From: Escherichia phage CJ20
Strand: one strand, 5' to 3'
DNA length: 64,000 bases
Sequence record: MT533174.1
Shown here: positions 1-60,121 of the stretch, in pieces
How positions within the stretch are numbered: position 1 is the stretch's first letter
How the letters are laid out: every line of letters begins with the position of its first letter
Notes under the pieces: model-generated
Database searches by the model: none
Seen by the model: the letters and a program-made list of their open reading frames with translations, nothing else
Told to the model about the DNA's origin: nothing
Made by a program: the position numbers and the translations under genes

Positions 1-995
1 TTTTCTCCGATAACAACATGAACACCTGTCATGTCATCACGCAACGTTTTTAGACGACCATTAATGGAAGTCGGTTTGGCATCAGTACCAATATCTGTTT
101 CAACTTTCGACAATCTTGTATTCATACCAGAAGTGGTATTTTCTAAATTTGTTGCCTTGGTTTCCAGAGTCCCGACACGGTTTGCGATACTTTGACCTTG
201 GCCAAAACCAATTGCGGTTTTGATATTCCCTATATCAGTTTCATTAGTTCCGGCTTTAGCTTCGACTGCAGTTAAACGAGTATAAACAGGAGATTTACCA
301 ATACCTTCAGTGCGAGGACCAAGTTCTTCGCGCATCTCATTTAATTTAATCGCGAGGCCACCAACATCCGAATCATTATAATTATCTTCGAGAATAGTAA
401 GACGACGTTGCGTGGTTGCAATTGCCGTACTATTATCGATGATAATACGTTTCATCCCGGTGGCATCATTGGTTTCGCCTTCAGGCAACGGGTCGCCATT
501 GATATCTTGGTTTGCATAATGACCCATTTCACGCTTAATACGGTTAATATTGGCACGAACGGTCAAATATGGTCCATCTTCCAGTGGGTTATAATAACCA
601 ACATCTTCCTGTAATTCACCGAGATTTGTGCTGGTATCAAGTAAAGCAATATCAGTTTCGGCTAAACCAGTCTGGAGGCTTACAATATTAATACGGTTAG
701 TTTCAATCTGTTGAATAACGCTTGCATCTGTAGAAATATCCAGAGCTTCTTTAATCTGGTTAACGCTATCGACAATTTCGTTTACTTTGTCTTTAGTGGT
801 CGCGTCATTCTTTTCCAGAGTTTCAACGTTGGTCTGTACACCCAAAGCTGCAGCATTAAGGGCACCATCGTGCCCATATTTGGTAGTGGCTGCAGTTAAG
901 CAATCACCATTGCGAATCCATTCAATTCGTTTTTGGTTAGCTTCTGGCACACCATCGACAAACGGAAGATTCACTAATTCTAATTTGTTAATCAT
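1..995 (-). CDS. wac: fibritin (whisker/neck protein), 3' end of gene lies outside window
   Basis: Minus-strand ORF open to the window edge, ATG at 995 immediately after gp12 stop; translation begins MINKLELVNLPFVDG and has fibritin-like repetitive segments; synteny 12-wac as in T4. Not in the ORF track because no stop lies inside the window. Confidence 0.75.
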   Translation of the reverse strand, partial: MINKLELVNLPFVDGVPEANQKRIEWIRNGDCLTAATTKYGHDGALNAAALGVQTNVETLEKNDATTKDKVNEIVDSVNQIKEALDISTDASVIQQIETNRINIVSLQTGLAETDIALLDTSTNLGELQEDVGYYNPLEDGPYLTVRANINRIKREMGHYANQDINGDPLPEGETNDATGMKRIIIDNSTAIATTQRRLTILEDNYNDSDVGGLAIKLNEMREELGPRTEGIGKSPVYTRLTAVEAKAGTNETDIGNIKTAIGFGQGQSIANRVGTLETKATNLENTTSGMNTRLSKVETDIGTDAKPTSINGRLKTLRDDMTGVHVVIGE

Positions 996-1004
996 TTTTA
1001 TTCC

Positions 1005-2540
1005 TTATCTGACCTTAATAATAAAAAGAATAGACATGGACCATGGGCGGCTTTCATTACCTATCAGACCTTCGCTGTTTAATGTAGTTCGAGAATCACG
1101 ACTGCCATCGCCATCGACTTCATAACCTTCGTTCGTAAAATAAGAACGGTTATCCCAGTCCAAACCTTTACGAGTGCCTGCATAGTTTGAACGAGCTGTG
1201 TTACCAAATGCACCAGCATTATCATGTTCACCAAAACCACCGGCGTGCTTGTGGAAACGGAGTTGTTGTGCCTGTACTGTACCGTGACCATATGAACCAA
1301 CACCTTGACCCAATTTAGGTTTTTGTTTGGAATCATTTCCTTTGGCGTTTCTTATATTAATGTTTGTTTCCCATTCCTTCATAGCACCATCGTTAGAGCT
1401 GTTGGAACCACGAGGAAACAATCCACGAAAATCTGGCTTATTACCAGTTGCGCCCCATTTACCACCAACGACATTTCGGAAACCAGCATCACCGACATTA
1501 CCGCCGTCACAAATTTCCCAACCAGAAGGAATATTACCAGTTTGACCGCCCCACATAATAATAGTTCCGATTGGCACACTATCTTTTAGTTCGTTACGGG
1601 TTACAACATCCTGACCATTTCTGCGTAAAGTTCCATTAACGTTAAGAGTTCCATTAATTGTACCGCCCCCAGTCGAAATGACGTTTGCATTATATGCAAG
1701 AGCTGTATTACCATCACCTGAGCCAACGGTAGTTGTTAATTTAACAACACCAAGGCGACCAGTTGTGCCAGTTCTGGATAAAAGAGTGGACGGAGATAAT
1801 GCAATATTCGAGTTACTTCCCGCAGCTGCCTCGGACGGAGTTGCCAGACGAATAAGACCATTTTGGCTTTGCGTAGAAACGAGTTGTTTCAAGCCAAGCG
1901 GAGAAACTGCAACGCCATCATTCATTGTCCCCTGCTGAACTTCCGCCGGAGTTGCAATTTTAACAATCCCTTGAACAGTGGTTGTTGCGGTGCTATAAGT
2001 TGGAAGTGCAGCCGTGGCTTTACCGATTGCTAATGAAACCTTCAGAGGAGTCATAGCTGTTGTATCATCAGTTCCGGCTAGCGCAGCCGGTTGGGTTGAA
2101 ATCTTAATTACACCATTGCGGTCTTCAGTAGAAGTGCGAGTATTAAATGTATTATCAATGGATGCTTTAAGACTTGACGGGACAATAGCTGCATCGGTTA
2201 CTGTACCATCAATAGCTTCTGCATTGGTTGCGTAACGGGTAATACCAACATATGTTTCGGTAGCTTGTGTCGGGATAGTCAGTCGAGCTTTAAGAGTTTC
2301 TGGAGTTACTGCTGTATTATTACCGAGACCATCAATAACTTCTTGTTCAGTTGCCAGTCGAATAATACCTGGGACTGCAACAGTTGCTTCTGGGATAAAT
2401 CCATCAATAGCAATAGGAGCCAAAGCCCCTAATGCATCTTGAACGTTTGTTACTGTCGGCGAGAATGAAGTTCCCGCCGGGTCAAATGTTTTATATTCGG
2501 ATTTATCGCTAATATGTTTTAGCGTGTTAGTCGTTGTCAT
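1005..2540 (-). CDS. 12: short tail fibre protein gp12
   Basis: 511-aa ORF; C-terminal region closely matches T4 gp12 as I recall it (HKHAGGFGE, NTRRSN-VGTRKGLDWDNRSYFTN, IIKV C-terminus); position between gp11 and wac. Confidence 0.9.
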   Translation of the reverse strand: MTTTNTLKHISDKSEYKTFDPAGTSFSPTVTNVQDALGALAPIAIDGFIPEATVAVPGIIRLATEQEVIDGLGNNTAVTPETLKARLTIPTQATETYVGITRYATNAEAIDGTVTDAAIVPSSLKASIDNTFNTRTSTEDRNGVIKISTQPAALAGTDDTTAMTPLKVSLAIGKATAALPTYSTATTTVQGIVKIATPAEVQQGTMNDGVAVSPLGLKQLVSTQSQNGLIRLATPSEAAAGSNSNIALSPSTLLSRTGTTGRLGVVKLTTTVGSGDGNTALAYNANVISTGGGTINGTLNVNGTLRRNGQDVVTRNELKDSVPIGTIIMWGGQTGNIPSGWEICDGGNVGDAGFRNVVGGKWGATGNKPDFRGLFPRGSNSSNDGAMKEWETNINIRNAKGNDSKQKPKLGQGVGSYGHGTVQAQQLRFHKHAGGFGEHDNAGAFGNTARSNYAGTRKGLDWDNRSYFTNEGYEVDGDGSRDSRTTLNSEGLIGNESRPWSMSILFIIKVR

Positions 2541-3205
2541 TAGTAGACTCGCTTATAGTGATAAAGAGATGTTGGACCATTAACCGAACCACCTTGCAAT
2601 ACTACATCTTGTGCGCCAAGATATTCCCATTGGCCATAACCAGAGCGGGGTTGCTGAACAATAGTCTGTTCCATAACACATCCATATTGGGTCGTAGGAG
2701 CAAAGATGTGATTCTGATAGTCGTTATATGTAATATTTAATATAGACTGGTCCAGTGCATCGATAGCAGTCGCAGAAATAATCATTCCCTGGGAAATTGC
2801 AGTCAAAAGAACGTCATTGACTTTCGATGCAACCAGCACGCTCGAGTCGCCGACAATAACTTCTACCGGGAAACCGAATACTTTAATAAGAACCGTTTCG
2901 CCAAGGTTTTCGCCAGAAATAGACCCAGTGAACTTAATTTTATCAGACTGACTAATAAATCCAGGGGCGGTATTCTCATGACGAGTAATTATCGAACCAA
3001 CAGGAAGTTCTGCACGAAATGCAATATCATCAATTGCACTTTGGACTGTTGGATAGAATACACCATCATTTGTCTGGTTAGCAGACGGGCCACCGATATA
3101 GCGGTTACCCGCTACAGCAGTGGAATCAGTAGTTGTATAATCAAACTGGAGGTAACCAGCATGGCGGGATATTACACCCGCCTTTTTATTTGTCAACGTA
3201 GTCAT
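2540..3205 (-). CDS. 11: baseplate wedge protein gp11 (short tail fibre attachment)
   Basis: About 221 aa from the ATG at 3205 (1-nt TAATG overlap with gp10 stop); NKKAGVISR N-terminal motif resembles T4 gp11; synteny 10-11-12. Confidence 0.8.
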   Translation of the reverse strand: MTTLTNKKAGVISRHAGYLQFDYTTTDSTAVAGNRYIGGPSANQTNDGVFYPTVQSAIDDIAFRAELPVGSIITRHENTAPGFISQSDKIKFTGSISGENLGETVLIKVFGFPVEVIVGDSSVLVASKVNDVLLTAISQGMIISATAIDALDQSILNITYNDYQNHIFAPTTQYGCVMEQTIVQQPRSGYGQWEYLGAQDVVLQGGSVNGPTSLYHYKRVY

Positions 3206-5016
3206 TATGCAATCCTTACCCAACGGTAAACAATCAAATATGGAGGAAGCGTATCTATTGGCTGTGCCAGCGGGTCAAGAGCTTCGTTAATAGTCGCATA
3301 ATCTTCACGATAGTTTGTATAAGCAGGACCTTGCGCATCTGGGTCAACCTGGCAACCACCAACAATAATTGGACCAGTTGCATCAGCTACCAATACTTTT
3401 TCATCGGTCTGAATTTTAGGAATATTGTTTGATTTAATATGAATCTGTACATTACCACCAGTTCCGCCCGCAGTTGCCTGAGGAGCACCAGAAGAATCAA
3501 GGTCGTTATTGTTCGTATGGAAGTTCGAGGCTGGGTCAGCAGACCAACCAATCAAAACACGTTCTTCAAGGCGCTTCCATGTTCCCATACCCATATATGT
3601 TGCAGGGTTATTCGGGTTAGTCGTGTTCTCGTAAATTGTGCCAATTGGATGGAACATATTAAAGAGAATCGAAACAGCAGATGGTTTAATTTCGCTTGGG
3701 TCAACCGGTTCCAGGTTAGGAGCAAACGGATTATCGTAATCCGTAATTCTTATATCGCCGGTGATTGAAACTTCTGGACCCTGGGAAACATAGATGTTAT
3801 TTGTTTCATCTGTAATTTCATCAAGAGTCATTGTGGTGCCGATATCGTTATTATACCAAACGATAGACAGAATATCGCCATCTTCAAATGTGCGAGCAAA
3901 CTCAAAAGATTCAATACGGTTGTCTTCATCAAAGGTTGTTATATAGTCTTCTTTTGATTTAGCCCATTGACCACCATTATCTGTACACTCTTCTGCAGTG
4001 TCACCATCAGCACCTTCGCATGTATAAGCTGGATAGTTTGCAGTTCCTGCTTCGTGTTGTAATATGCTGTTGATATAAACTTCACATGCGTTCGGGTTAA
4101 TTGGACTGCTAGGAGATACCGCTAGTTCAGTAACCATAAATGTGTGTTTAGTAGATAAATCAGCTACAACCAAAGAGCCTTCGACAGGGGTTTCAAGAGT
4201 AAATTTCGAATCACGGATTTGAACATCTCGACGGTTATAAGAACTACGATACTGAGCAATACCATCGTTGAATGTTCTGACAATAACTGTGTCACCAGCT
4301 GCACAAGGCATACGTAAACGAATATTGCGACCGTCAAGGGTTACAATTTCACCAGGCGCAGCACCAGGCGAACCGAATTCAGCATTAACCGGGTCGAAAA
4401 TATCATCTTTGCCATAAAACAGGTCGTTACCACGATGTTTAACTTCGAGGCTTGCAATGTTATAAGGACGACCATTAAACACATCCAGGAAGTCCGTTTG
4501 ACCTTCTGTTGCGATGAATTGCTGGGTCTCAACAGTTGCCACGTCGTTATTTGAAATCTTGTCAATCTGTTTGTTGTCAATGTATTCCCAACGACCTGGA
4601 GAGCAATAAACCAGTTCGATATCTGCCAGGTTACGACGGATAACAACAGGGTCAGGAGAGCCTTTCATTGTGTCACCGACAGCCGGAACAATCGTCACCG
4701 GGGAGACTTGCCATGTTGCAAACACATCACGCAAACGAATAACGTAATTATATTCGGCTGGTGTCCCTTTAGGTAGTTTAACAGTAATCATACCATTTGA
4801 AGTATTCACTGCATAGCTACGACCCATAACGGCTTCCAGAGTTGTACCGTCGGCTACTGACCATGTTTTCCATGCACCAGCAGCATGAGGATTTTCTCCA
4901 TCGCCGAGCTGGTAGTAAAGGTCATCAAAGTTATTATTAATTTTTTGGCCGCCGAGACGAAGATAATCGCCGGTACCATCATCGACCATCACGCCTATTT
5001 TTAAATTTTGTTTCAT
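3205..5016 (-). CDS. 10: baseplate wedge protein gp10
   Basis: 603 aa (T4 gp10 is about 602 aa); N-terminus MKQNLKIGVMVDDGTGDYLR matches the T4 gp10 N-terminus. Confidence 0.9.
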   Translation of the reverse strand: MKQNLKIGVMVDDGTGDYLRLGGQKINNNFDDLYYQLGDGENPHAAGAWKTWSVADGTTLEAVMGRSYAVNTSNGMITVKLPKGTPAEYNYVIRLRDVFATWQVSPVTIVPAVGDTMKGSPDPVVIRRNLADIELVYCSPGRWEYIDNKQIDKISNNDVATVETQQFIATEGQTDFLDVFNGRPYNIASLEVKHRGNDLFYGKDDIFDPVNAEFGSPGAAPGEIVTLDGRNIRLRMPCAAGDTVIVRTFNDGIAQYRSSYNRRDVQIRDSKFTLETPVEGSLVVADLSTKHTFMVTELAVSPSSPINPNACEVYINSILQHEAGTANYPAYTCEGADGDTAEECTDNGGQWAKSKEDYITTFDEDNRIESFEFARTFEDGDILSIVWYNNDIGTTMTLDEITDETNNIYVSQGPEVSITGDIRITDYDNPFAPNLEPVDPSEIKPSAVSILFNMFHPIGTIYENTTNPNNPATYMGMGTWKRLEERVLIGWSADPASNFHTNNNDLDSSGAPQATAGGTGGNVQIHIKSNNIPKIQTDEKVLVADATGPIIVGGCQVDPDAQGPAYTNYREDYATINEALDPLAQPIDTLPPYLIVYRWVRIA

Positions 5017-10054: not shown

Positions 10055-10072
10055 AAGCCTCCGAAGAGGCTT
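10055..10072 (-). other. intercistronic UUCG-tetraloop hairpin at the gp6/gp7 junction
   Basis: Minus strand AAGCCUC-UUCG-GAGGCUU; the stem includes the gp6 stop codon and lies just upstream of the gp7 ribosome-binding site. Confidence 0.5.
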
Positions 10073-12029
10073 ATAATGTAATTGGTTCTAAATTAATAGT
10101 CGTATAATGTGGACGAAGGTCATTTTCGAATACGATAAGCGAACCGTCTTTTGTGTAGATGTTGTCCTGGTCTGGACCCGCATACAGTTCGATTGATTGC
10201 ACTTCAAAACGGTCCGAAGTCAAACCAATCGCGGCAATGTCCCAGAAGATATAATCAGACCAATAATCGATTTCACCGATTACAAAGTATTGAGTCTGGT
10301 CAGCTGGTGCAACCATCTTATTAAAGTCATTACCTGTATAAGGTTGAATATTCGCATTAAGCTGAACATCACCTGGACGGAACGGACCAATGACCATTTT
10401 ACCATCGCCAGAAGAGTTGCGGTCAGTCGCTACAATACGGACGTTATATGAGGTAATGGTATCGCTTTGGTTTGTTGGAACGAATTCGAATTCGCTTGAT
10501 TCCACCGACCTATTAGTATATTGATTATAATATTTAATGCCGGATTCTGGAGTCTTAAAGAAGTTCAAGACCTCGCGAACCATTGTCACCGTTGCAGACG
10601 AACCCAAAATACTATGGTCAGTATTATCCACATAAGTGAGCATTTTCGATTTAGCAAAACTGTGGTTAAACAATTCAACTTCATCAATATAATAGCGGTC
10701 AATCTGGTTAATGATTTGTGCTTGCAACCACTGTTCAGATTCCTGTAATTTATTCAGCGCATAAGACACTTTGATATTGTGTTTAAGGAACAAATAATCA
10801 GGAGAAATAACTGATGGTGTAATTGTCGATACGTTGAACTCACTAAGGTAGTTTTTGATGTCCTCACGCTGCACTGCGGTGAGATACAAGCCCGATTTAG
10901 GTTTAACTGATATAAACGCATACCCAGGTTTATTTGCGTCCGTAAACGTCTGTACGGCTTGTACGATTGAGCCGAATCTTTCTGATACGAAGGTATCATA
11001 ATCGGTCCCGGTGACAGCACGCATCTGCGCTTCACGTTTAACTACAGCCAGTTCACGGATTCGTTCAATATCTTCCGGGTCACCGCCACCATCAGCTCCA
11101 ACGTAATCTTTATCGTTATTGTAGTTTTCGGTAATCTTGTCAACAGTGATATAAGTCAAGGAGTCTGCATAGCTGAAATCAACTGCACCATTTGCATCAG
11201 CCCCTGATGTGCGAAGATATTCGATAACAATTGTCGAATCCTGCACAGGTTTCAATCCACCAATATAGTTGGCTTCCAATACGCCACCGGCAACCGATTT
11301 GGTCGATTCCCCTTCACCAAAGAAGAATTCAGTATTACCATCAACAGTTTCACGCATATAGAAAATGGTGGATGTTGAGCCAGCATGAACCATTGATTTG
11401 TTTGTCCAGTCAGTCCACTCGATACCGTTCACAAAAAGCTTAACTTCTTTTCGGTCAATATCCGGGTCACGAATAAGAATAGGTTGTTTCGGGTCATACA
11501 AAAGTTCGGTACGAATAATGCGGCCTTGTGCAAGGGATACAATCGGCAGATATTGGTTGTTAATGTCTTTTACCGCGATTACATTATCCGTTGTGACAAA
11601 CATATAAGGGTCAGCTGATGTATCACGAGCATAAGCCAGGAACTTAGTCCCGCGCGGGATTTCAATATTCGATGGTTGGAGAGCGTGAGAACATGTCAGC
11701 ATAACCGAAGTCTTTGCGGCTGAACGTGAAGATGGAAGATAACCATTATCCTGTGCAGCTTGAACAACCGAAGACCTTAGGTTTGCAGTTCCGATAAATG
11801 ATTCATAAACTGCCGTATTAGCAAACTGCTGCATATACAATGTATTATATGCAAGCATATCAATCAGGATATTCATTCGCGAACCTACGAAATCATAATC
11901 CTTAAATTCATCCTGGCTTGATAACCAGTCAATGATGTTCTTTTTAATTTCTTCAAACGTAGCTCCCACAAATACTTTTGGGATAGCGTTAACGGTTCTT
12001 GTTAATTGGTAATTCGTAGGAGTAGCCAT
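10071..12029 (-). CDS. 6: baseplate wedge protein gp6
   Basis: 652 aa; high identity over the whole length to the T4 gp6 sequence as I recall it (for example YQLTRT-NAIP, VYESF, ANLRSSVVQ, GADGGGDPEDIERIREL, C-terminal SLIVFENDLRP). Confidence 0.92.
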   Translation of the reverse strand: MATPTNYQLTRTVNAIPKVFVGATFEEIKKNIIDWLSSQDEFKDYDFVGSRMNILIDMLAYNTLYMQQFANTAVYESFIGTANLRSSVVQAAQDNGYLPSSRSAAKTSVMLTCSHALQPSNIEIPRGTKFLAYARDTSADPYMFVTTDNVIAVKDINNQYLPIVSLAQGRIIRTELLYDPKQPILIRDPDIDRKEVKLFVNGIEWTDWTNKSMVHAGSTSTIFYMRETVDGNTEFFFGEGESTKSVAGGVLEANYIGGLKPVQDSTIVIEYLRTSGADANGAVDFSYADSLTYITVDKITENYNNDKDYVGADGGGDPEDIERIRELAVVKREAQMRAVTGTDYDTFVSERFGSIVQAVQTFTDANKPGYAFISVKPKSGLYLTAVQREDIKNYLSEFNVSTITPSVISPDYLFLKHNIKVSYALNKLQESEQWLQAQIINQIDRYYIDEVELFNHSFAKSKMLTYVDNTDHSILGSSATVTMVREVLNFFKTPESGIKYYNQYTNRSVESSEFEFVPTNQSDTITSYNVRIVATDRNSSGDGKMVIGPFRPGDVQLNANIQPYTGNDFNKMVAPADQTQYFVIGEIDYWSDYIFWDIAAIGLTSDRFEVQSIELYAGPDQDNIYTKDGSLIVFENDLRPHYTTINLEPITL

Positions 12030-12030
12030 T

Positions 12031-14094
12031 TTATTTCCTAGTAGGAGATTCTAAACAAGGTATGCAAATGGAAAGGGATGGAAATGCAATCGTTAAACCG
12101 AATATTCCCAGCATCTTATTAATCCATTGTACCACCTTACTTAATGATAATGTTGATATTTGGTTATACATTGATTTGCACAAGTCTTTCATTGACCTGG
12201 AACCATCAGTAAATTCGTGATATAAAGATTTTGCTTTAGTTACTGAGTTCTCGTATATAACCATGATATCATCTACAGTAGCTCCGAGCATACCGAGAAG
12301 TTCTTCCATTTGAGTCACAATAGGAAGCTTTTTGAATTCTTCTAAAGCCATATCTAATACATCAGAAACGGAGGTTTGACTTTCGGTAATAGAGTTCTTA
12401 ATCTGATTATATTTATTCTTTAAAAGTTCAAGTGCAGCTTCAGCTTGTGCTAATGCGGCTTCCTTCTGAGCAGTTAGCTCGTCTGTAACTTTTTCGTACA
12501 TTCCTGAAAGATATTGTTTAAATTCAATAGCTTGTTTTTGTACTTCTTGCTTTTTGAGCTTAATCTCATTCCACAGATTGAGTGCCTGGGTTTTAAGAGC
12601 CTCAATCATTGCATAAGCTTCGTCTATTTTCTGGTCTACCTTTTCCATAACCATTTGATAAACATCTGATGCTGTGAATCCTGGAAAGTTACCGCTCATT
12701 ATCATGTCCAGTGGTTTAACTTGCTTCATCATTTCCTTGACCGCAGTAATAACGCTCCAAACTGGGTTCGGAACTATAGGAGGCATACTCCATATTTGAG
12801 CGAGGTCTACACACAGTTTTGATAATGCAACACCAGCCATAAGCAATTGAGACCAGGCCCAGTCATACAAGTCTGTAATTGCATCAATAAGGTCACGCGA
12901 ATACATCTTGACGCGTTCAACCGAATAATCGTATGCCGACCCAATGGCAGAATAAATCGATTGGATGGTTTCTTCTAAATTAAAGTTTTTCCATGCTTCT
13001 TTTAATTTCTGTACACCATCACCTGAAGTGCAGAGGTCTTCCAGGTCAATAGTCATGCCCATAATAGTAATCGAGGGTAAAAAGCTTTTAAGTAAGTCCC
13101 ACCCACCGCCAACAATATTCAAGACCTGTGATATGGCATCTTTAAATGCAAGAAAAGCCATTTGCTGAACATATTGACACATAGCAACAGCTGAGTTGCC
13201 TAGCTCTTCCATTGCGACCGATAGCTTACTATAACCAGAATCGAAGAATTTTTCCCAATCGGTTCCACCAGATGATGGCCATCCAGGGAGCATATCCCAA
13301 TATAATTTGAATGAATTCCTAGATGTATTCCATGAAGCCATAATCGCATTGGTCAATCCGTTGTAAGGGAATTCCGCTGTAAAAGGAACACAGCTTATTG
13401 CCCTGGCTCGCCCGGTTATTTCTGGCGGTAAAGACCCGATGGATACCGGTCCCGGAATCGGAGTTCCTGGGATACTCATATCAACATCTAGATTTAATAT
13501 CAGTCCAACATAAGTACAAGGTTTTGTCTCATAGTACTTCAAATAAGCCCTGCGGGAGTCACCAAGGCCGTTAAAGTTGACATACATATGATAATCAGCC
13601 GTAACTGCAATCATCGTCCTGGGGTCCATTCTGGGGCCTTGTGACGTCCATACACCGCCACAGTTTTCGATGCGATACATATCATATTCAATAGATGTTT
13701 TATACAATACAGATTTTGATAAATCGGCGCCGTACCAATCATTACCGGACAAAAGAGTTGCACCAATCGATTCTACATAATTTTCTAAATCCAATTGCGT
13801 AATAAAGAATATTCCGAGTTTAGCACACCAGATACCTTGACTTGTTCCATCTTCCGGCGGGGGAGGTGCAGGAAAAGTTTCGGACTTATTACCAAATGGA
13901 TTTTGTGTGTATAAATGTGTAGCTAGTGGAATAATCTCGGTATCCCATTCAACGCCATTCCCAGGTTGAATAAAAGCACCTGTTGGGTTATATAATTCCC
14001 ATTTAACCCGGCGATATTCACCGGGTCCTACTGCGTCATCACAGGGACTTGTTACAGTCCCTACCACTTCATCAACTTTATTGTAGTAATTCAT
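12031..14094 (-). CDS. hypothetical 687-aa protein embedded in the baseplate operon (central coiled coil, hydrophobic Cys-containing C-terminus)
   Basis: Long uninterrupted ORF; ATG at 14094 lies 1 nt after the gp5 stop and its own stop lies 1 nt before the gp6 ATG; I recognise no homolog; occupies the slot where T4 has genes 5.1 to 5.4. Confidence 0.7.
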   Translation of the reverse strand: MNYYNKVDEVVGTVTSPCDDAVGPGEYRRVKWELYNPTGAFIQPGNGVEWDTEIIPLATHLYTQNPFGNKSETFPAPPPPEDGTSQGIWCAKLGIFFITQLDLENYVESIGATLLSGNDWYGADLSKSVLYKTSIEYDMYRIENCGGVWTSQGPRMDPRTMIAVTADYHMYVNFNGLGDSRRAYLKYYETKPCTYVGLILNLDVDMSIPGTPIPGPVSIGSLPPEITGRARAISCVPFTAEFPYNGLTNAIMASWNTSRNSFKLYWDMLPGWPSSGGTDWEKFFDSGYSKLSVAMEELGNSAVAMCQYVQQMAFLAFKDAISQVLNIVGGGWDLLKSFLPSITIMGMTIDLEDLCTSGDGVQKLKEAWKNFNLEETIQSIYSAIGSAYDYSVERVKMYSRDLIDAITDLYDWAWSQLLMAGVALSKLCVDLAQIWSMPPIVPNPVWSVITAVKEMMKQVKPLDMIMSGNFPGFTASDVYQMVMEKVDQKIDEAYAMIEALKTQALNLWNEIKLKKQEVQKQAIEFKQYLSGMYEKVTDELTAQKEAALAQAEAALELLKNKYNQIKNSITESQTSVSDVLDMALEEFKKLPIVTQMEELLGMLGATVDDIMVIYENSVTKAKSLYHEFTDGSRSMKDLCKSMYNQISTLSLSKVVQWINKMLGIFGLTIAFPSLSICIPCLESPTRK

Positions 14095-14095
14095 A

Positions 14096-15883
14096 TTAAC
14101 CGACCTGTACGTTGCCACCAGATACTTTAGCTAATGAACCGCCATCCATATGCACAGTATTTGATGCGTTTAAATTAATGTTCGTCGCTGCAAAATTTAA
14201 ATCTTGTTCGACATTTACATCCATATTTTGAGCATTGATTGTGGCCTTTTGTTTAACGCTTATATCTGCATTCTGGTTGACATTAACTGTTGTATCTTTT
14301 TCAACCGTAATATATGCTTCTTGTTCAACAGTTATATCAGCAGTACCCATAATAACTATTTTAACATTTCCTTTAACAAGCAGAGTTCCATTACCTTCTA
14401 CAGTTTTGGTTTCATTCCCTCTGATATGAATACTTTCGTTTCCATCGGTCTGACGACGAACGTTAGCCATATTATAATAGGTTTCATCACCACCAACGTT
14501 GACTTTATTATTACCGCCAACGTAAGTACTCGAATCGCCCTGGGTCATATAATAACCATCAGCCACTGTCTTCGAAGTCTTACGACCATCTGGCGCAACT
14601 TCCTCATAGGAACCGGTCGGATGAATCAGTCGATAACGTTCTTGACCTGGGGTGTTATCGAATTCCTGTACATGCCCGCCTTCGGTTTGCATTGTCTGCA
14701 CATAAGGATATTCGCCCTTGTAACTTGATTCTGGCTCTTTAAATAGAATCCTTGTATCTTCTGGAGTCCACGGGTCGGCTGGGTCAGAATTTGTAGGGGC
14801 CACAAAGGTTTGAATCATCCTATACGAACGCCCTTTAAATTCTATTTCTTTTGGGGCCATAATACCGTATGATTCCATATTACCTGTAAGGATAATCATT
14901 GATACCCTTGATGCACGCCCTTTAGTTTGGTTAAACCATACTGAATTACGAGCTTCCTCAAATGCCTTTTTATAATCACCTACTAACATTGCGCTAAGCA
15001 TTCCACGGAATTTAGTTAATCCGCCTAATCCCATTTGGAAAGCCATGTTTTCAAGAGCCATTTGTCTCGAACGGTTTTCTTTATTATAAACCGGACCAAC
15101 AACACTGTGTTTGCCTATATCATTTTGAACTTTTTTAAGGTCTTCTTGGAATAACTTAGAAGCCTCGTCCATTGATATTGCACCAGGGTTACCTTTAACT
15201 TCACGGCCTATTTGATTAGATAATATTTTGTTTATCTGATTCATATCTCTAATAGGTTGTGGTGCAATTAAGTGGCCTATACCTATAGTTGGATATCCTT
15301 CGGTGTCCCAATATACCTTCAGTCGAAGACCTTCATCACGGTGAAGCATATTTTCAATTGTGAAATTAGGGTTATCATCTGGTTTAACCTGACTCAAATC
15401 AAGACCATCAGGGTTAATACCAAGGTCAAGGTTTGCATCCTGAATTACGTTCGAAGTTGCATCATAACCGACTTCACCGCCACGGTTAAGCGCCGCCGCA
15501 TCATTACCAACATAAAGTGGGTATTGCCCTGTGGGGTCAGAGAAACCTTCGTTAGGATTTGCTTTTTGTCTTGAGGCTGAACCATACGTACCAATAACAA
15601 GACCGTTGAGCTTCCACTTGTCTAAAAAGTGACCATATACTTGAGTACCTGGGACCATACCAGTCATGGCAGTTTGAATCCCAGAAACTGATGCAGATGA
15701 TGTTGGCATCAATACAGACATCCAAGGAAGGTCTTCGGTTCTGATACCTTTAACAGGCCCTTGTGCTTTCTCATATGGATGCATACCCCATACACGAACA
15801 CGAACACGACCTTGCTGAAGTGGGTCCATTCGGTCTTCGACAACCCCGACGAACCAACTTACATTATCTGACATGTTAATCAT
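14096..15883 (-). CDS. 5: baseplate hub and tail lysozyme gp5
   Basis: 595 aa; N-terminus WFVGVVED-MDP...GRVRVRV and internal T4-lysozyme-like motif DEGLRLKVYWDTEGYPTIGIGHL. Confidence 0.92.
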   Translation of the reverse strand: MINMSDNVSWFVGVVEDRMDPLQQGRVRVRVWGMHPYEKAQGPVKGIRTEDLPWMSVLMPTSSASVSGIQTAMTGMVPGTQVYGHFLDKWKLNGLVIGTYGSASRQKANPNEGFSDPTGQYPLYVGNDAAALNRGGEVGYDATSNVIQDANLDLGINPDGLDLSQVKPDDNPNFTIENMLHRDEGLRLKVYWDTEGYPTIGIGHLIAPQPIRDMNQINKILSNQIGREVKGNPGAISMDEASKLFQEDLKKVQNDIGKHSVVGPVYNKENRSRQMALENMAFQMGLGGLTKFRGMLSAMLVGDYKKAFEEARNSVWFNQTKGRASRVSMIILTGNMESYGIMAPKEIEFKGRSYRMIQTFVAPTNSDPADPWTPEDTRILFKEPESSYKGEYPYVQTMQTEGGHVQEFDNTPGQERYRLIHPTGSYEEVAPDGRKTSKTVADGYYMTQGDSSTYVGGNNKVNVGGDETYYNMANVRRQTDGNESIHIRGNETKTVEGNGTLLVKGNVKIVIMGTADITVEQEAYITVEKDTTVNVNQNADISVKQKATINAQNMDVNVEQDLNFAATNINLNASNTVHMDGGSLAKVSGGNVQVG

Positions 15884-16482
15884 AGAGCCTTCTCCATTTC
15901 ACGGATAAGCGCAGAAATAAATGACTCAATATCTTCTGGGTCAATTATTTTTATTTCGCGTTTGTATTCATTTTTACGAATAGCATCTTCATAGATATCC
16001 ACTGCAGCCAATGGGCCTTCGTATTGTGGATATAATTTGTTCTTATCACCTTTATCGTACCAGGTGTATGGATTATCAGGATAAGAAACAAGATTCCAGA
16101 ATTTTTCACCATCTTCATTCACATGATAAAGGACCTGGTTACCACCTATATTCGAATAGCGTTGAATTGATGCCTGATACGATGATTCTTGTGAACATAT
16201 CCAACCATAATAAGGGTCATAGATATTATTAAGCATAAGGAGAACCCAATAGAGTTGCGTGTTTCCATAGAGCTGGTATGCAAGTTCTTCAGGTCTCGGA
16301 GCTCCGGCGATGTAATATGTTTTTGGTGTATAATTAACCGCAACCTTATCAAAATAGGCACGATAGTTTCTGAAGATGTCAGTCATTGGGATGCTTAAGA
16401 CATCTTCTTTCGTTAATGATGCCGAGTTTTTTCTGATTGTTTTAGCATCATAATCAATTGGGTTAAAAAATGAAAAAAGCAT
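15880..16482 (-). CDS. 53: baseplate wedge protein gp53
   Basis: About 200 aa from the ATG at 16482 with GGAGG 5 nt upstream; the track's start at 16512 is a non-ATG codon; position between gp5 and the divergent gp4. Confidence 0.75.
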   Translation of the reverse strand: MLFSFFNPIDYDAKTIRKNSASLTKEDVLSIPMTDIFRNYRAYFDKVAVNYTPKTYYIAGAPRPEELAYQLYGNTQLYWVLLMLNNIYDPYYGWICSQESSYQASIQRYSNIGGNQVLYHVNEDGEKFWNLVSYPDNPYTWYDKGDKNKLYPQYEGPLAAVDIYEDAIRKNEYKREIKIIDPEDIESFISALIREMEKAL

Positions 16483-16494
16483 AAAGCCTCCATT

Positions 16495-16502
16495 TATAAA
16501 TA
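16495..16502 (+). promoter_or_regulatory. T4-type late promoter (TATAAATA) for gene 4, in the divergent 53/4 intergenic region
   Basis: Exact TATAAATA about 29 nt upstream of the gp4 ATG; the same palindromic TTTATAAA core reads TATAAATG on the minus strand toward gp53. Confidence 0.5.
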
Positions 16503-16530
16503 AGTATATCAATATTTATTAGGAGGCTAT

Positions 16531-22661: not shown

Positions 22662-22735
22662 GGCCCTGTAGCTCAATTGGTTAGAGCATCCGGCTCATAA
22701 CTGGCAGGTTTCCGGTTCAAGTCCGGATGGGGCCA
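22662..22735 (+). tRNA. tRNA with CAT anticodon (Met or Ile2-type)
   Basis: Manual fold: D-arm GCTC/GAGC, anticodon loop CTCATAA, T-arm TCCGG-TTCAAGT-CCGGA, 7-bp acceptor stem with two G-U pairs; T4 encodes a CAU-anticodon tRNA-Ile. Confidence 0.7.
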
Positions 22736-22737
22736 CC

Positions 22738-22814
22738 CGGGGTGTAGCTTAATTGTATAGAGCAACGGTCTTCTAAACCGTAGGTTGTGGGTTAGAATCC
22801 CGCCACCCCGACCA
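22738..22814 (+). tRNA. tRNA-Arg (TCT anticodon)
   Basis: Manual fold: acceptor CGGGGTG/CACCCCG, anticodon stem ACGGT/ACCGT with loop CTTCTAA, T-arm GTGGG-TTAGAAT-CCCGC, encoded CCA; T4 also encodes tRNA-Arg(UCU). Confidence 0.8.
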
Positions 22815-30892: not shown

Positions 30893-30951
30893 TTGTGTAC
30901 ATCCAAGTGGGGCTATGACACAATGGTCCCACAATCAATGAGGAAAATATT

Positions 30952-31644
30952 ATGAACAGTCCAAAAACTTTTAATAGTCAAATGCGTGAAGTTGGTCAAT
31001 TTGCTCAATATGTCAGTAATGACGAAATCAAAAATGAACCGATGTTCTTTAACTGCTATCCAGAATTTGCGCATAAGCATGGTGGCCCAATCACGCGCAG
31101 TTTTCTTGATAACCTACCAAAAGAATGGACTGATGGTCCTGATAATTTGGTGTTTGACTCTCGCGTCCATATGTTGATGCCTGGTTGGTATCCTGCTATC
31201 CCTGGGTATCACCATGATGATGTACCACGTCCAGATATTCCAGCAGGACAACATTTTATTACAGCAGGACAACCTGATTATGATAACCCTCGTTACCATT
31301 CTGAACACATCCTGGGTCTGGTTAACGCTTCTGTTTGCCCTACTAATTTTGCTCTGGGAACTTCAGAATTCAGTCAGATTCCTGATGGCGAACTTATCTA
31401 TCGCCAGTGGCACCAGGAAGTTCTGGAAAAAATCAAGGCGGGTGAACTTTTAGTTCAAGAAGCTCCTGACCGCACATTATGTGAATTCAACTGGCAGACC
31501 TGGCATACTGGAACAAAAACAGTTAGTAACGGTTGGCGCTGGTTTGGTCGCGTATCTCGTAAAACAGACCGTGTTAATAAAGTTACCAATGAAATCCGCG
31601 TTAATGCTCAAGTATATCTGGAATTCCCCATGGAGGGCTGGTAA
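30952..31644 (+). CDS. hypothetical 230-aa protein
   Basis: Long ORF with GAGGAAA ribosome-binding site; His/Asp-rich segment PGYHHDDVP. Confidence 0.6.
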   Translation: MNSPKTFNSQMREVGQFAQYVSNDEIKNEPMFFNCYPEFAHKHGGPITRSFLDNLPKEWTDGPDNLVFDSRVHMLMPGWYPAIPGYHHDDVPRPDIPAGQHFITAGQPDYDNPRYHSEHILGLVNASVCPTNFALGTSEFSQIPDGELIYRQWHQEVLEKIKAGELLVQEAPDRTLCEFNWQTWHTGTKTVSNGWRWFGRVSRKTDRVNKVTNEIRVNAQVYLEFPMEGW

Positions 31645-32231
31645 TGGCCCTTTATGAACCTGGGTGTATGGGTGTTGATGTAAACTTCATCCGTCGCCCA
31701 GAAAATGCAGGAATTATTGTCTCAAGAGACGAATTTATGATTACCAAAAGATATTGGGCGGACCTTGATGATGGTGATGAAGGAATCAAGGTTGAAAACG
31801 TTGATTGGTCGCGATGCAATCGTCATGTGAAAGAGCTTTTAATTAAGGAATATAAAATGGGATATATTGTTAATGGGTATCAACCGGAACCACTCAAAGA
31901 ACAGACACCCGACCCATTAATTTCTTATAGCAAGAAATATGGATTTCGTACCTGGAAAGATGAATTTGATAAGTTAATTTGTTCCAGGTTTTATGTGTGG
32001 GCTGGAATCTTATTTTTACCAATCCTGTTGTTTTTCTTGACAGGTAAAAATGAAGCACCTGTGGCTGTAATGGGTGCGTGCATTTCTTCTGCTGCTGTTG
32101 GACTTATTGCATCATTTTTATGGACTATGGCTATTGAAGTACCTTTTCGTATTTCTAAAGTTAAAAAGGTATACGACGATATCGCTAAGAAAAATACATT
32201 AAATTCTTTTATTGAGGAATGCCGTAAATGA
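31644..32231 (+). CDS. membrane protein (C-terminal FIEECRK)
   Basis: 195 aa; two hydrophobic helices; C-terminal tail matches the family at 26541-27769. Confidence 0.55.
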   Translation: MALYEPGCMGVDVNFIRRPENAGIIVSRDEFMITKRYWADLDDGDEGIKVENVDWSRCNRHVKELLIKEYKMGYIVNGYQPEPLKEQTPDPLISYSKKYGFRTWKDEFDKLICSRFYVWAGILFLPILLFFLTGKNEAPVAVMGACISSAAVGLIASFLWTMAIEVPFRISKVKKVYDDIAKKNTLNSFIEECRK

Positions 32232-32464
32232 GTATTGCAATTTATATTAAATCTGAGTCGTGTGATTCTTATCTGTATTCCTATGACACCGGAACATCAG
32301 AAGAGAAAATCAAAGAAGATTTGGAAAGTGACTTGGATATGTTCCGGCCTATTTCCGATTATATGGTCCAAATATCTGATAGTGAAAGCCCATCAACAGA
32401 AACATGCGTTGAAATTATTATGGCCGAAATCTTTAAAAAATCTTGGGAACGTGATGATGAGTAA
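32228..32464 (+). CDS. hypothetical acidic protein
   Basis: 78-aa ORF, ATGA-coupled to the previous gene. Confidence 0.5.
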   Translation: MSIAIYIKSESCDSYLYSYDTGTSEEKIKEDLESDLDMFRPISDYMVQISDSESPSTETCVEIIMAEIFKKSWERDDE

Positions 32465-32909
32465 GAAAGTGAAGGAATTATCTGCTGGCATTATTTTCAT
32501 GACTGAAGATAAAGAGTTATTTATGGGGCGTGTGACTGGTTCTCGTAAACCAGGTATGCCTGCGCACAAATGGGACATCCCTAAGGGTCATGTTGAAGCT
32601 GGTGAATCCCCGATTGAAGCTGCTATCCGTGAAACCGAAGAAGAAACCGGGTTTACCCAATATGACCCGGCATTCTTAAAAGACCTGGGTGAGTTCCGTT
32701 ATTCAGATAACAAAAACCTTCACCTGTTTTTGTATACGGTTCCTGTCGAGCATGAACAATTCAGACATAGTAAATGCTCTGCCTATCATACCTTCCCGGA
32801 TGGCAGTTCGGTCCCAGAGTTTGATGCGTTTGCTCTGATTAAACCGAGCCAATGGCAGTACGTGATGGGCAAATCGATGTACAAGGTACTGACTCAAATT
32901 TTCGGATAA
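32454..32909 (+). CDS. nudE: Nudix hydrolase NudE
   Basis: 151 aa, the same as T4 NudE; Nudix box GHVEAGESPIEAAIRETEEETG; adjacent to gene e as in T4. Confidence 0.88.
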   Translation: MMSKKVKELSAGIIFMTEDKELFMGRVTGSRKPGMPAHKWDIPKGHVEAGESPIEAAIRETEEETGFTQYDPAFLKDLGEFRYSDNKNLHLFLYTVPVEHEQFRHSKCSAYHTFPDGSSVPEFDAFALIKPSQWQYVMGKSMYKVLTQIFG

Positions 32910-32935
32910 TAAATACCCCTATATAAGGGGGTATT

Positions 32936-33427
32936 ATGAATATATTCGAAATGTTACGCATAGATGAAGGTTGTAAGTTGGATTTGTATAAAGATACTGA
33001 AGGCTATTGGACCATTGGTATCGGGCAACTGATAACTAAGAACCCATCAAAAGATGTTGCTCGTGCCGAGCTCGACAAGCTCATGGGTCGCGTCTGTAAT
33101 GGTCGCATAACCCAGCACGAAGCTGAAACATTGTTTAACCGTTCGGTCGAAAAAGCTAAAGCCGGAATCTTGAGACACCCTGTCTTAAAACCTGTTTATG
33201 ATGTGCTAGATGAAGTTCGTCGTTGTGCACTCATTAATATGGTATTCCAGATGGGTGTTGCTGGTGTTGCTGGTTTTCCTAAGGGTATGCGATTGTTGAA
33301 GGCCAAATCGTGGGAAGCCGCCGCCAAGGAACTGGCCGACTCGAGATGGTATAAAGTCCAGACTCCGAACCGAGCCAAACGAGTTATAGAAACGTTCCGT
33401 ACCGGAACTTTTAGCGCATACAAATAA
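32936..33427 (+). CDS. e: endolysin (T4 lysozyme e)
   Basis: 163 aa; [12 protein letters not shown]...[13 protein letters not shown]...[12 protein letters not shown]...[14 protein letters not shown] closely matches T4 lysozyme with Glu11, Asp20 and Thr26 conserved. Confidence 0.95.
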
Positions 33428-59922: not shown

Positions 59923-60121
59923 ACATGATTTTCATATTGGCGATGGCTGGTTCGGTAATGTAGAATGGGACGTGGATGGTTCTTGGTATACCGGAACTAT
60001 GTATGTCACTTCTGAATATTCTGAAGGTGTTTCATGGGCCATGGAACTTGACGACGTGTTTGCTTCTTCCGAAGAAATGCTAGAATATGTTGAACAAACA
60101 ATTCGTGAGAACAATACATGA
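59906..60121 (+). CDS. hypothetical protein (46.2 position)
   Basis: 71 aa from the ATG at 59906. Confidence 0.45.
   Translation: MMKMYKHDFHIGDGWFGNVEWDVDGSWYTGTMYVTSEYSEGVSWAMELDDVFASSEEMLEYVEQTIRENNT

What the first reader, a model, noticed from the sequence alone, without database searches (positions are those of the whole stretch)
12031..14094. Unrecognised 687-aa gene translationally coupled between gp5 and gp6
In T4 the interval between gene 5 and gene 6 holds only small genes (5.1 to 5.4, the last being the spike-tip protein). Here the same slot is one 2.06 kb ORF with no similarity I can recognise. Its ATG lies 1 nt after the gp5 stop and its stop lies 1 nt before the gp6 ATG, so it is expressed as part of the late baseplate operon. 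The protein has a long charged coiled-coil segment and a hydrophobic, Cys-containing C-terminus (SLSICIPCLESP). That placement and architecture suggest a virion-associated component, such as an enlarged spike-tip or baseplate accessory protein or an ejected effector, rather than a moron with its own promoter.
Basis: partly seen in the sequence, partly recalled or inferred. Interest (0 to 1): 0.8.

Follow-up and report, generated by a model that had tools for sequence, protein, structure and literature searches.

The report
Large non-PAAR phage spike-tip gene
This 687-residue gene, wedged between the tail-spike gene 5 and baseplate gene 6 of a JS98/Bp7-type T-even phage, is most likely an oversized cap for the cell-puncturing spike. 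It replaces T4's small gp5.4 tip, and a 2025 preprint already proposed this role for its RB43 homologue, so it is interesting but not new.

Summary
It is a 687-codon ORF (ATG 14094, TAA 12031-12033). It starts 1 nt after the gp5 stop and ends 1 nt before the gp6 ATG.

The window is a Dhakavirus, 99.3% identical to Bp7, WG01 and SP18. The protein belongs to PHROG 5296 ("unknown function"). It is a full-length homologue (43% identity) of RB43 orf205w. Mattenberger et al. (2025 preprint) proposed orf205w as an unusually large spike tip, based on a 17.7 Å cryo-EM map.

New support found here:
- No gp5.4/PAAR gene exists in the window or in the whole Bp7 genome.
- The gene follows gp5 within -1 to +10 nt in all 15 loci examined, even where gp6 is not downstream.
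- gp5 carries a family-specific C-terminus (…K[IV][TS]GG[TN]VQVG) wherever this gene occurs.
- The window's gp5 is T4-like for residues 1-520 and RB43-like for the last ~75, so the gp5 end and the tip gene travel as one module.

AlphaFold gives a confident model (pLDDT 87). It has an N-terminal α/β domain with no PDB relative and a ~370-residue helical body. The C-terminal strand is probably tied back to the body through Cys235-Cys677. No virion proteomics exists for any member.

Verdict: a new member of a recently proposed kind, of moderate interest.

The parts
12031..14094 (-). Complete CDS (687 aa plus TAA) of the putative large spike-tip protein; PHROG 5296; orthologue of RB43 orf205w
13495..14094 (-). 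N-terminal alpha/beta domain, residues 1-200. It holds most of the family's invariant residues, including C18, Y27, R28, the NDWYGADLSK motif at 118-127, E143, N144 and C193.
13219..13494 (-). Residues 201-292: Pro-rich wrap or linker containing strand 235-241 with Cys235. It folds confidently only in the presence of the helical body.
   Evidence: pLDDT 64-91 in the full model against 34-67 in the isolated N-terminal model. Cys235 is present in 51 of 53 sequences.
12103..13218 (-). All-helical body, residues 293-664. Long helices at 294-328, 398-435, 475-529, 538-575 and 631-664. Conserved loops PPxVPNPxW (438-446) and SGNFPGFTA (466-474).
12370..12672 (-).
   Evidence: Amino-acid identity 0.38-0.66 in 475-600 against 0.48-0.86 in 293-474.
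12034..12102 (-). C-terminal hydrophobic segment, residues 665-687, predicted as beta-strand 673-682 and carrying Cys677 (codon 12064-12066)
   Evidence: KD19 1.87; strand in the AF2 model; Cys677 is lost only in the two sequences that also lack Cys235
14096..15883 (-). Gene 5 (baseplate hub / tail lysozyme, central spike), 595 aa
   Evidence: Pfam Gp5_OB, Phage_lysozyme, Gp5_C; PHROG 430
14099..14323 (-). gp5 C-terminal module, residues 521-595, ending …LAKVSGGNVQVG. It is RB43-type with one extra beta-strand and is co-inherited with the tip gene.
   Evidence: Residues 1-520 are 66% identical to T4 and 48% to RB43. The last ~75 residues are about 21% identical to T4 and 42% to RB43. The motif is present in all 15 loci. 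199 records carry it, with the same organism distribution as the tip gene.
10071..12029 (-). Gene 6 (baseplate wedge), whose ATG lies 1 nt after the tip gene's stop
12034..12039 (-). Shine-Dalgarno-like AGGAAA for gene 6, formed by the last two codons (Arg-Lys) of the tip gene
   Evidence: Sequence …CCTACTAGGAAATAAaATG
14103..14106 (-). Shine-Dalgarno-like AGGT for the tip gene, inside the conserved gp5 codons for …VQVG
   Evidence: Sequence …GTACAGGTCGGTTAAtATG
16491..16520 (-). Near-consensus T4-type late-promoter motifs (TATAAATG at 16498-16491, AATAAATA at 16520-16513) upstream of gene 53. They are the likely start of the 53-5-tip-6-7 late transcript.
   Evidence: No exact TATAAATA on the minus strand between 12031 and 16490. 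The one-mismatch matches inside gp5 and gene 53 (14967-14974, 15946-15953) are at chance frequency.

Best explanation
The gene encodes the tip of the central tail spike of this phage. It is a 77-kDa, probably monomeric, non-PAAR protein. It caps the blunt C-terminal end of the gp5 beta-helix trimer and takes the place of T4 gp5.4.

Expression (shown from sequence): it is made late, as part of the 53-5-tip-6-7 baseplate operon, by translational coupling.

Docking (inferred): it attaches to the family-specific last beta-strand of gp5 (…TGGxVQVG). I expect the highly conserved N-terminal alpha/beta domain to be the docking part. The C-terminal strand is probably tied back to the body through the Cys235/Cys677 pair.

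Action (inferred): on sheath contraction the spike and its tip are driven through the outer membrane into the periplasm. This has been shown for P2 gpV and is assumed for T4.

Beyond capping (speculative): the roughly 370-residue amphipathic helical body resembles tape-measure and apolipoprotein-type helices. It may do more than sharpen the spike, for example by opening against or inserting into a membrane, or by engaging a periplasmic partner.
For: 1. Full-length homology (43% identity, E about 1e-173) to RB43 orf205w in the same locus. RB43 lacks gene 5.4 and shows extra density at the spike tip in a 17.7 Å cryo-EM map (PMC12407873).
2. No gp5.4/PAAR gene in the window or the whole Bp7 genome. 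tblastn best E is 0.18 and a five-sequence HMM gives best E 2.9, against T4 controls of 5e-63 and 7e-53. Yet gp5.4 is otherwise widespread, in 1471 phage records.
3. In 15 of 15 loci the gene starts -1 to +10 nt from the gp5 stop. In LPCS28 it stays attached to gp5 although gp6 is not downstream.
4. Co-variation with gp5. Every gp5 next to this gene ends …K[IV][TS]G[GA][TN]VQVG with an extra strand. This includes the 31%-identical outlier (…FTGGTVSVG), and Mm5 deviates slightly (…ITGGTVVVR). gp5.4-type phages end …GSRI[DN][IL]G.
5. The window's gp5 is a chimera: T4-like up to about residue 520 and RB43-like after that.
6. A tblastn search with this gp5 C-terminus finds 199 records whose organism counts match those of the tip gene: Escherichia 26/26, Enterobacter 20/20, Cronobacter 18/18, Citrobacter 13/13.
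7. Operon context, no own promoter and Shine-Dalgarno motifs inside the upstream codons.
8. Strong purifying selection and native base composition.
9. A confident single-chain AF2 model (pLDDT 87, pTM 0.78) fits a self-contained monomer, like gp5.4 or PAAR sitting on a trimer.
Against: - No member of the family has been detected in virions by mass spectrometry. None of the phage proteomics papers checked covers it. In the Morganella MP1 proteome none of gp142-146, which should include gp5, was detected. I did not verify that MP1 carries the gene.
- The RB43 authors could not produce a complex of the protein with their gp5 beta-helix fragment. Their map is 17.7 Å with C6 symmetry imposed, so the extra density is not identified.
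- The N-terminal domain has no PAAR-like fold. No pseudo-threefold repeat could be shown, although that test had no power.
- A 77-kDa acidic helical protein is an odd shape for a membrane-piercing point.
- Which end binds gp5, and the stoichiometry, are pure inference.
Confidence: 0.7

Rival explanations
1. It is an ejected, membrane-active accessory protein, acting like a pilot or tape-measure protein. It is carried in the baseplate or tube lumen rather than capping gp5. After penetration it inserts into the inner membrane to help DNA passage.
For: The helical body gives weak but repeated matches to tape-measure proteins. PHROG TMP families score E 5e-4 to 0.08. The exhaustive profile search finds TMPs at E 1e-6 to 4e-4. 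hhalign gives 92-94% probability. The body contains apolipoprotein-like amphipathic helices and hydrophobic segments at 417-435 and 662-680.
Against: The similarity lies in low-complexity helical sequence and may be compositional. The regular tape measure gp29 is present in the genome. Co-variation with the extreme C-terminus of gp5 and the loss of gp5.4 are explained better by direct capping. This rival overlaps the main explanation, because a tip protein could also be membrane-active.
Confidence: 0.13
2. It is a non-structural assembly factor, a chaperone or scaffold for gp5 trimerisation or hub assembly. It is absent from the mature virion, like T4 gp51 or gp57A.
For: It is co-expressed with gp5 and co-varies with the gp5 C-terminus. 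No proteomic detection has been reported.
Against: This would leave these phages with an uncapped spike despite the loss of gp5.4. RB43 shows additional density at the tip, not less. At 687 aa with strong conservation throughout, it is large for a dedicated chaperone. T4 gp5 needs no such factor.
Confidence: 0.1
3. It is a moron, host-takeover or superinfection-exclusion gene that merely sits in a permissive slot, the one occupied in T4 by segC and small ORFs.
For: The 5-6 interval is a known variable region that holds a homing endonuclease in T4. PADLOC gives coiled-coil-level hits only, E 0.002-0.04.
Against: It has no own promoter or terminator and its base composition is native. It is conserved full length across at least six genera and stays fixed next to gp5. 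It co-varies with gp5. It has no endonuclease or defence domains.
Confidence: 0.04
4. It is an artefact: several small ORFs merged by an assembly or sequencing error.
For: None. One related record (phT4A) looked truncated.
Against: 213 of 215 independent records are full length. The phT4A truncation is a run of 100 N's in a partial genome. A single confident AF2 fold spans the whole chain. Purifying selection acts along the whole length.
Confidence: 0.01

Closest known systems
RB43 orf205w (AAX78727), the putative large spike tip of Pseudotevenvirus; Mattenberger et al., bioRxiv 2025 (PMC12407873)
   Same: Same family (PHROG 5296) with full-length alignment at 43% identity. Same position immediately after gp5. 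Same architecture of an N-terminal alpha/beta part followed by an all-helical part. The genome lacks gene 5.4, and gp5 has the extra C-terminal strand.
   Different: The host phage here is a Dhakavirus (Tevenvirinae) whose gp5 is otherwise T4-like (66% identity), so the tip and the gp5 end look like a transplanted module. With a 53-sequence alignment AF2 is confident (pLDDT 87), whereas the authors report low confidence for RB43. The role is unproven even for RB43.
T4 gp5.4 and the PAAR-repeat spike tips (PDB 4KU0; Pfam PAAR_motif)
   Same: Same genomic slot between genes 5 and 6. The presumed job is the same: capping the blunt end of the gp5/VgrG beta-helix. Stoichiometry is probably one cap per trimer. 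The two are mutually exclusive in genomes.
   Different: 687 aa against 97 aa. No sequence or profile similarity (hhalign probability 0.1%; no Pfam hit). No fold similarity for the N-terminal domain. No conserved 3-His plus Cys metal site: only three His residues, and none of them falls in a His-conserved column. It pairs with a different gp5 C-terminus.
PAAR proteins with C-terminal extension or effector domains in type VI secretion
   Same: The concept of a spike tip that carries a large extra domain delivered into the target envelope.
   Different: Here there is no PAAR core at all, no recognisable toxin domain, and the family is confined to T4-like phages of Enterobacterales.
Phage tail tape-measure proteins (Pfam PhageMin_Tail and many PHROG TMP families; T4 gp29)
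   Same: A long amphipathic helical body with hydrophobic segments and weak profile similarity over residues ~370-670. TMPs are ejected and thought to act at the membrane.
   Different: It has an N-terminal globular domain and a different genomic position. gp29 is present separately as the real length determinant. The similarity may be compositional.
Fused apex domains of P2 gpV and phi92 gp138 spikes (iron-loaded HxH tips)
   Same: An alternative, non-PAAR way of finishing a spike. Conserved Cys residues here (C18, C193, C235, C677) could play an analogous stabilising role.
   Different: It is a separate gene rather than a fused domain. It has no HxH motif and is far larger.

Membership tests
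RB43 orf205w-type large spike tip (PHROG 5296) | Full-length sequence homology to orf205w / PHROG 5296 | tested here: met
   PHROG 5296 E = 0, residues 1-682 matching profile positions 1-684 of 685. tblastn to RB43 gives 42.9% identity over residues 1-682. The matched feature is RB43ORF205w.
RB43 orf205w-type large spike tip (PHROG 5296) | Gene lies immediately downstream of gene 5, in place of 5.1-5.4 | tested here: met
   1-nt gap to the gp5 stop. The same holds in 15 of 15 loci, with gaps of -1 to +10 nt.
RB43 orf205w-type large spike tip (PHROG 5296) | Genome lacks a gene 5.4 orthologue | tested here: met
   Window: tblastn best E 1.0. Whole Bp7 genome: tblastn best E 0.18 and HMM best E 2.9, with T4 controls at 5e-63 and 7e-53.
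RB43 orf205w-type large spike tip (PHROG 5296) | gp5 beta-helix one strand longer with a divergent last ~60 residues | tested here: met
   An 8-residue extension and the …GGNVQVG end, aligned with RB43, KP15, Pm5461, LPCS28 and Mm5.
RB43 orf205w-type large spike tip (PHROG 5296) | Protein physically located at the spike tip of the virion | not testable with these tools
   Only a 17.7 Å RB43 map exists. No proteomics was found.
PAAR / gp5.4 spike tip | PAAR-repeat sequence signature (Pfam PAAR_motif) or homology to gp5.4 | tested here: not met
   No PAAR hit at E up to 1. hhalign against T4 gp5.4 gives probability 0.1%.
PAAR / gp5.4 spike tip | Small conical beta fold of about 100 residues | tested here: not met
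PAAR / gp5.4 spike tip | Apical metal site made of 3 His plus 1 Cys | tested here: not met
   The window protein has only three His (60, 169, 626), and none lies in a His-conserved column. Four Cys are conserved instead.
PAAR / gp5.4 spike tip | Binds the blunt C-terminal end of the gp5/VgrG beta-helix | not testable with these tools
   Supported only indirectly, by co-variation with the gp5 C-terminus.
Tail tape-measure protein | Significant match to TMP families | tested here: inconclusive
   PHROG TMP hits at E 5e-4 to 0.08. Reciprocal weak hits at E 1e-6 to 4e-4. hhalign gives 92-94% over helical regions only. Coiled-coil bias is likely.
Tail tape-measure protein | Acts as the sole tail-length determinant encoded with the hub genes | tested here: not met
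   A gp29 orthologue (baseplate hub and tail length determinator) is present elsewhere in the Bp7 genome.
   No such Pfam or NCBIfam hit.
   blastp E at least 0.35. hhalign against gp5.1 gives probability 0.4%.

The most novel reading that the evidence does not exclude
The family is a new class of contractile-injection spike tip. It would be not just a sharpening cap but a deployable device. A novel-fold N-terminal domain clamps onto a dedicated gp5 end-strand. A stapled, amphipathic helical bundle resembling tape-measure or apolipoprotein helices is carried through the outer membrane. The bundle then opens to insert into, or remodel, the inner membrane or periplasmic targets and so prepare DNA entry. 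The gp5 end and the tip would form an exchangeable penetration cassette that T4-like phages swap between lineages.
Probability: 0.2. Interest if true: 0.8.

Novelty: new member of a known kind. Interest (0 to 1): 0.5.

Why it matters
How contractile tails get their DNA across the periplasm and inner membrane after the spike pierces the outer membrane is still unresolved. T4 gp5.4 was shown only in 2025 to matter for injection into deep-rough LPS hosts.

A sizeable group of phages has discarded the PAAR-type tip for a 77-kDa helical protein with no known fold. These are at least 215 genomes infecting Klebsiella, Enterobacter, Cronobacter, Citrobacter, Proteus and E. coli, and some of the papers describing them were motivated by phage therapy.

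Two points raise its importance if the role is confirmed:
- The same tip occurs in a true Tevenvirinae member (Dhakavirus).
- It travels with a matching gp5 end-piece, which suggests a modular penetration cassette.

Together these would give a natural system for comparing two tip solutions on nearly the same baseplate. They also give a concrete handle, the gp5 …TGGxVQVG strand, for engineering or structural work.

Tried and rejected
- Pfam, NCBIfam, PADLOC and PDB-sequence searches gave only coiled-coil noise.
- A search for pseudo-threefold repeats by hhalign self-comparison found none. The gp5.4 control also shows none at sequence level, so the test has no power.
- phT4A seemed to offer a natural N-terminal truncation, but it is an assembly gap of 100 N's.
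- Virion proteomics was sought without success. In Morganella MP1 none of gp142-146 (expected to include gp5) was detected, so the result is uninformative. The ValerieMcCarty phages are Jiaodavirus, which I take to be gp5.4-type, not checked here. vB_EcRAM-01 and KlebPhaCol have no virion mass spectrometry. Searches on KP15/KP27 and JS98 found nothing usable.
- Model coordinates are not exposed to the sandbox. The Cys-Cys distances, the partner of the C-terminal strand and the overall shape therefore could not be measured.
- Cluster look-ups of the divergent members gave no organism names.
Full report
**Observation**

The ORF exists as described, but on the minus strand. Its ATG is at 14094 and its TAA at 12033-12031, giving 687 codons.

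The gp5 stop (14098-14096) lies 1 nt upstream of the ATG. The gp6 ATG (12029) lies 1 nt downstream of the stop. Pfam confirms the neighbours as gp5 (Gp5_OB 1.6e-60, lysozyme, Gp5_C repeats) and gp6 (five gp6 domains).

T4's equivalent interval holds 5.1, segC, 5.3 and 5.4.

The junction sequences are …GTACAGGTCGGTTAAtATG and …ACTAGGAAATAAaATG. Each places a Shine-Dalgarno-like motif inside the last codons of the upstream gene. Gene 53 overlaps gene 5 by ATGA.

No exact late promoter (TATAAATA) lies on the minus strand between the ORF and gene 53. Near-consensus motifs sit only upstream of gene 53, at 16491-16520. No convincing terminator interrupts the operon. The gene is therefore expressed as part of the late 53-5-X-6-7 unit.

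**Is it a real gene?**

- The window is a Dhakavirus, 99.2-99.4% nucleotide identity to E33, Bp7, WG01, PSD2002 and SP18.
- tblastn finds the protein in 215 phage records, 213 of them full length. The one short match examined, phT4A, is an assembly gap.
- Against phage G8, pN is 0.19 while pS is saturated at 0.76.
- GC content equals that of the flanking genes.
- Neither chance nor assembly error is tenable.

**What it is not**

- Nothing significant appears in Pfam, NCBIfam, PADLOC or PDB sequences.
- Profile comparison with T4 gp5.4 and gp5.1 gives probabilities of 0.1% and 0.4%.
- It is not the tape measure, because a gp29 orthologue is present elsewhere in Bp7.

**What it is**

The only family match is PHROG 5296, of unknown function (E = 0, end to end). 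The family spans Dhakavirus, Pseudotevenvirus (RB16, RB43, Lw1), Slopekvirus (KP15, Miro), Bragavirus (Pm5461), Nanhuvirus (LPCS28) and Morganella, Yersinia, Pectobacterium, Pantoea and Buttiauxella phages.

The family is narrow. About eight full-length 50%-identity clusters appear among 1.84 billion representatives.

RB43ORF205w is the RB43 member. Mattenberger et al. (bioRxiv 2025, PMC12407873) make these points about it:
- RB43, RB16 and Lw1 have no 5.4 orthologue.
- orf205w (~690 aa, alpha/beta N-terminus, otherwise helical) occupies the 5.1-5.4 locus.
- A complex with their gp5 beta-helix fragment could not be produced.
- A 17.7 Å map of the RB43 baseplate shows a larger body at the spike tip.

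**New evidence bearing on that hypothesis**

(a) *Absence of the alternative.* gp5.4 homologues are found in 1471 phage records, down to 25% identity. Neither tblastn nor a five-sequence HMM finds one in the window or in the complete Bp7 genome. The best E-values are 0.18 and 2.9, against 5e-63 and 7e-53 for the T4 controls.

(b) *Linkage is to gp5.* In 15 of 15 loci the gene starts -1 to +10 nt from the gp5 stop. In LPCS28 it remains fused to gp5 although gp6 is not downstream.

(c) *Co-variation with gp5.*
- All gp5 proteins next to this gene end …L[TA]K[IV][TS]G[GA][TN]VQVG with an eight-residue extension. Mm5 deviates slightly (…ITGGTVVVR).
- The partial gp5 upstream of the 31%-identical outlier P0062 ends …FTGGTVSVG.
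- gp5.4-type phages (T4, Karamvirus AS6, Aeromonas B614) end …GSRI[DN][IL]G. The fourth comparator, Acinetobacter AbaSI_3, also has a short, different end (…APRYNMV).

(d) *Chimerism.*
- The window's gp5 is 66% identical to T4 and 48% to RB43 over residues 1-520.
- Over the last ~75 residues the order reverses, to about 21% against 42%.
- The gp5 end-piece and the tip gene thus behave as one transferable module.

(e) *Database-wide match.* tblastn with the last 58 residues of gp5 finds 199 records. Their organism tallies mirror those of the tip gene: Escherichia 26/26, Enterobacter 20/20, Cronobacter 18/18, Citrobacter 13/13, Klebsiella 103/113. None of the sampled records is from a T4-type genus.

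**Structure**

With a 53-sequence alignment, AlphaFold2 gives pLDDT 87 and pTM 0.78.

- Residues 201-292 fold only in the presence of the rest of the protein.
- The last 15 residues form a beta-strand.

Cys18 and Cys193 are invariant. Cys235 and Cys677 are each present in 51 of 53 sequences and are missing from exactly the same two. If the losses were independent this would happen about once in 1378. It argues that the C-terminal strand pairs with strand 235-241, through a disulfide or a shared metal site. The "hydrophobic Cys-containing C-terminus" is therefore more likely an internal staple than a membrane anchor.

**Tape-measure resemblance**

The helical body gives weak matches to tape-measure families. 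PHROG E-values run from 5e-4 to 0.08. The exhaustive search gives 1e-6 to 4e-4, and those hits are confirmed as TMPs or apolipoprotein-like proteins. hhalign gives 92-94% probability.

This may be compositional. It does suggest an amphipathic, possibly lipid-active, helical body. I treat it as a lead for mechanism, not as membership.

**Mechanism, with status of each step**

| Step | Status |
|---|---|
| Late operon expression with translational coupling | Shown |
| Replacement of gp5.4 | Shown |
| Co-inheritance with a dedicated gp5 end | Shown |
| A folded 77-kDa chain with a novel N-terminal domain | Shown (by prediction) |
| The protein caps the gp5 trimer, probably as a monomer | Inferred |
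| Docking is through the conserved N-terminal domain | Inferred |
| The tip is carried into the periplasm on contraction | Inferred |
| The helical body acts on membranes or periplasmic partners | Speculative |

**Gaps**

No member has been seen in virions by mass spectrometry, and no paper in the searchable library covers it. Multimer prediction, model coordinates and the AlphaFold-database fold library were not available.

**Verdict**

- Novelty: a new member, and the first in Tevenvirinae proper, of a kind proposed in 2025.
- Interest is moderate (0.5). The biology is unusual and unresolved, but the central idea is already in the literature.

Noticed in passing
window 13390-13392 (Cys235) and 12064-12066 (Cys677); alignment A1: Cys235 and Cys677 both sit in C-[IV]-P motifs. 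They are lost together in exactly the same two divergent family members (P0042, P0062) and kept in the other 51. Cys18 and Cys193 are invariant. This suggests a disulfide or metal staple joining the C-terminal strand to strand 235-241.
   Followed up: partly
window 14099-14323 (gp5 residues 521-595) versus 14324-15883: The window's gp5 is a mosaic. It is T4-like (66% identity) up to about residue 520 and RB43/Pm5461-like for the last ~75 residues. This implies recombinational exchange of a 'gp5 end plus tip' cassette between Tevenvirinae and pseudo-T-even lineages.
   Followed up: partly
L010 (Cronobacter phage LPCS28, OM638103) 708-4555: In this Nanhuvirus the gp5 and tip-gene pair is followed by a block of small opposite-strand ORFs instead of gp6. 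The baseplate cluster is therefore rearranged while the gp5-tip pair stays intact.
   Followed up: no
window 16491-16502: The sequence CATTTATAAATA contains an exact late promoter (TATAAATA) on the plus strand, facing gene 4. It overlaps a near-consensus one (TATAAATG) on the minus strand, facing gene 53. The two divergent late-promoter motifs share their core in the 4/53 intergenic region.
   Followed up: partly
L029 (Escherichia phage phT4A, NC_055712) 3402-3500: The RefSeq record has a run of about 100 N's inside the tip gene. As a result the annotated CDS (KNT56_gp148) is an N-terminally truncated artefact of a partial genome.
   Followed up: yes
phage records PP889464, PP889462, PQ657805, PQ657798, PP889466, MT341500: Automated pipelines label family members inconsistently as 'tail length tape measure protein', 'SbcC-like subunit of palindrome specific endonuclease' or 'baseplate hub structural protein'. 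None of these labels is supported. gp5.4 itself is often mislabelled 'phospholipase'.
   Followed up: partly
window 60118-61800 (+) compared with Bp7 30909-32409: The gp46-like SbcC/SMC-type recombination nuclease subunit is a single 560-aa ORF in the window. In Bp7 it is annotated as two pieces (30909-32147 and 32227-32409), with an opposite-strand homing endonuclease just downstream (32592-33308). So the window's phage differs from Bp7 at this locus.
   Followed up: no
window 22662-22814 (+): Two adjacent tRNA genes, tRNA-Met (CAT) and tRNA-Arg (TCT).
   Followed up: no
P0074 (1254 aa, metagenomic) residues 457-744: An unrelated-length protein of unknown origin aligns with family residues 374-670, including the conserved C-terminal YNQIxTLxLSKVTQWVNKLL region (hhalign 93.6%). 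It is a possible evolutionary bridge between this family's helical body and tape-measure-like proteins.
   Followed up: partly
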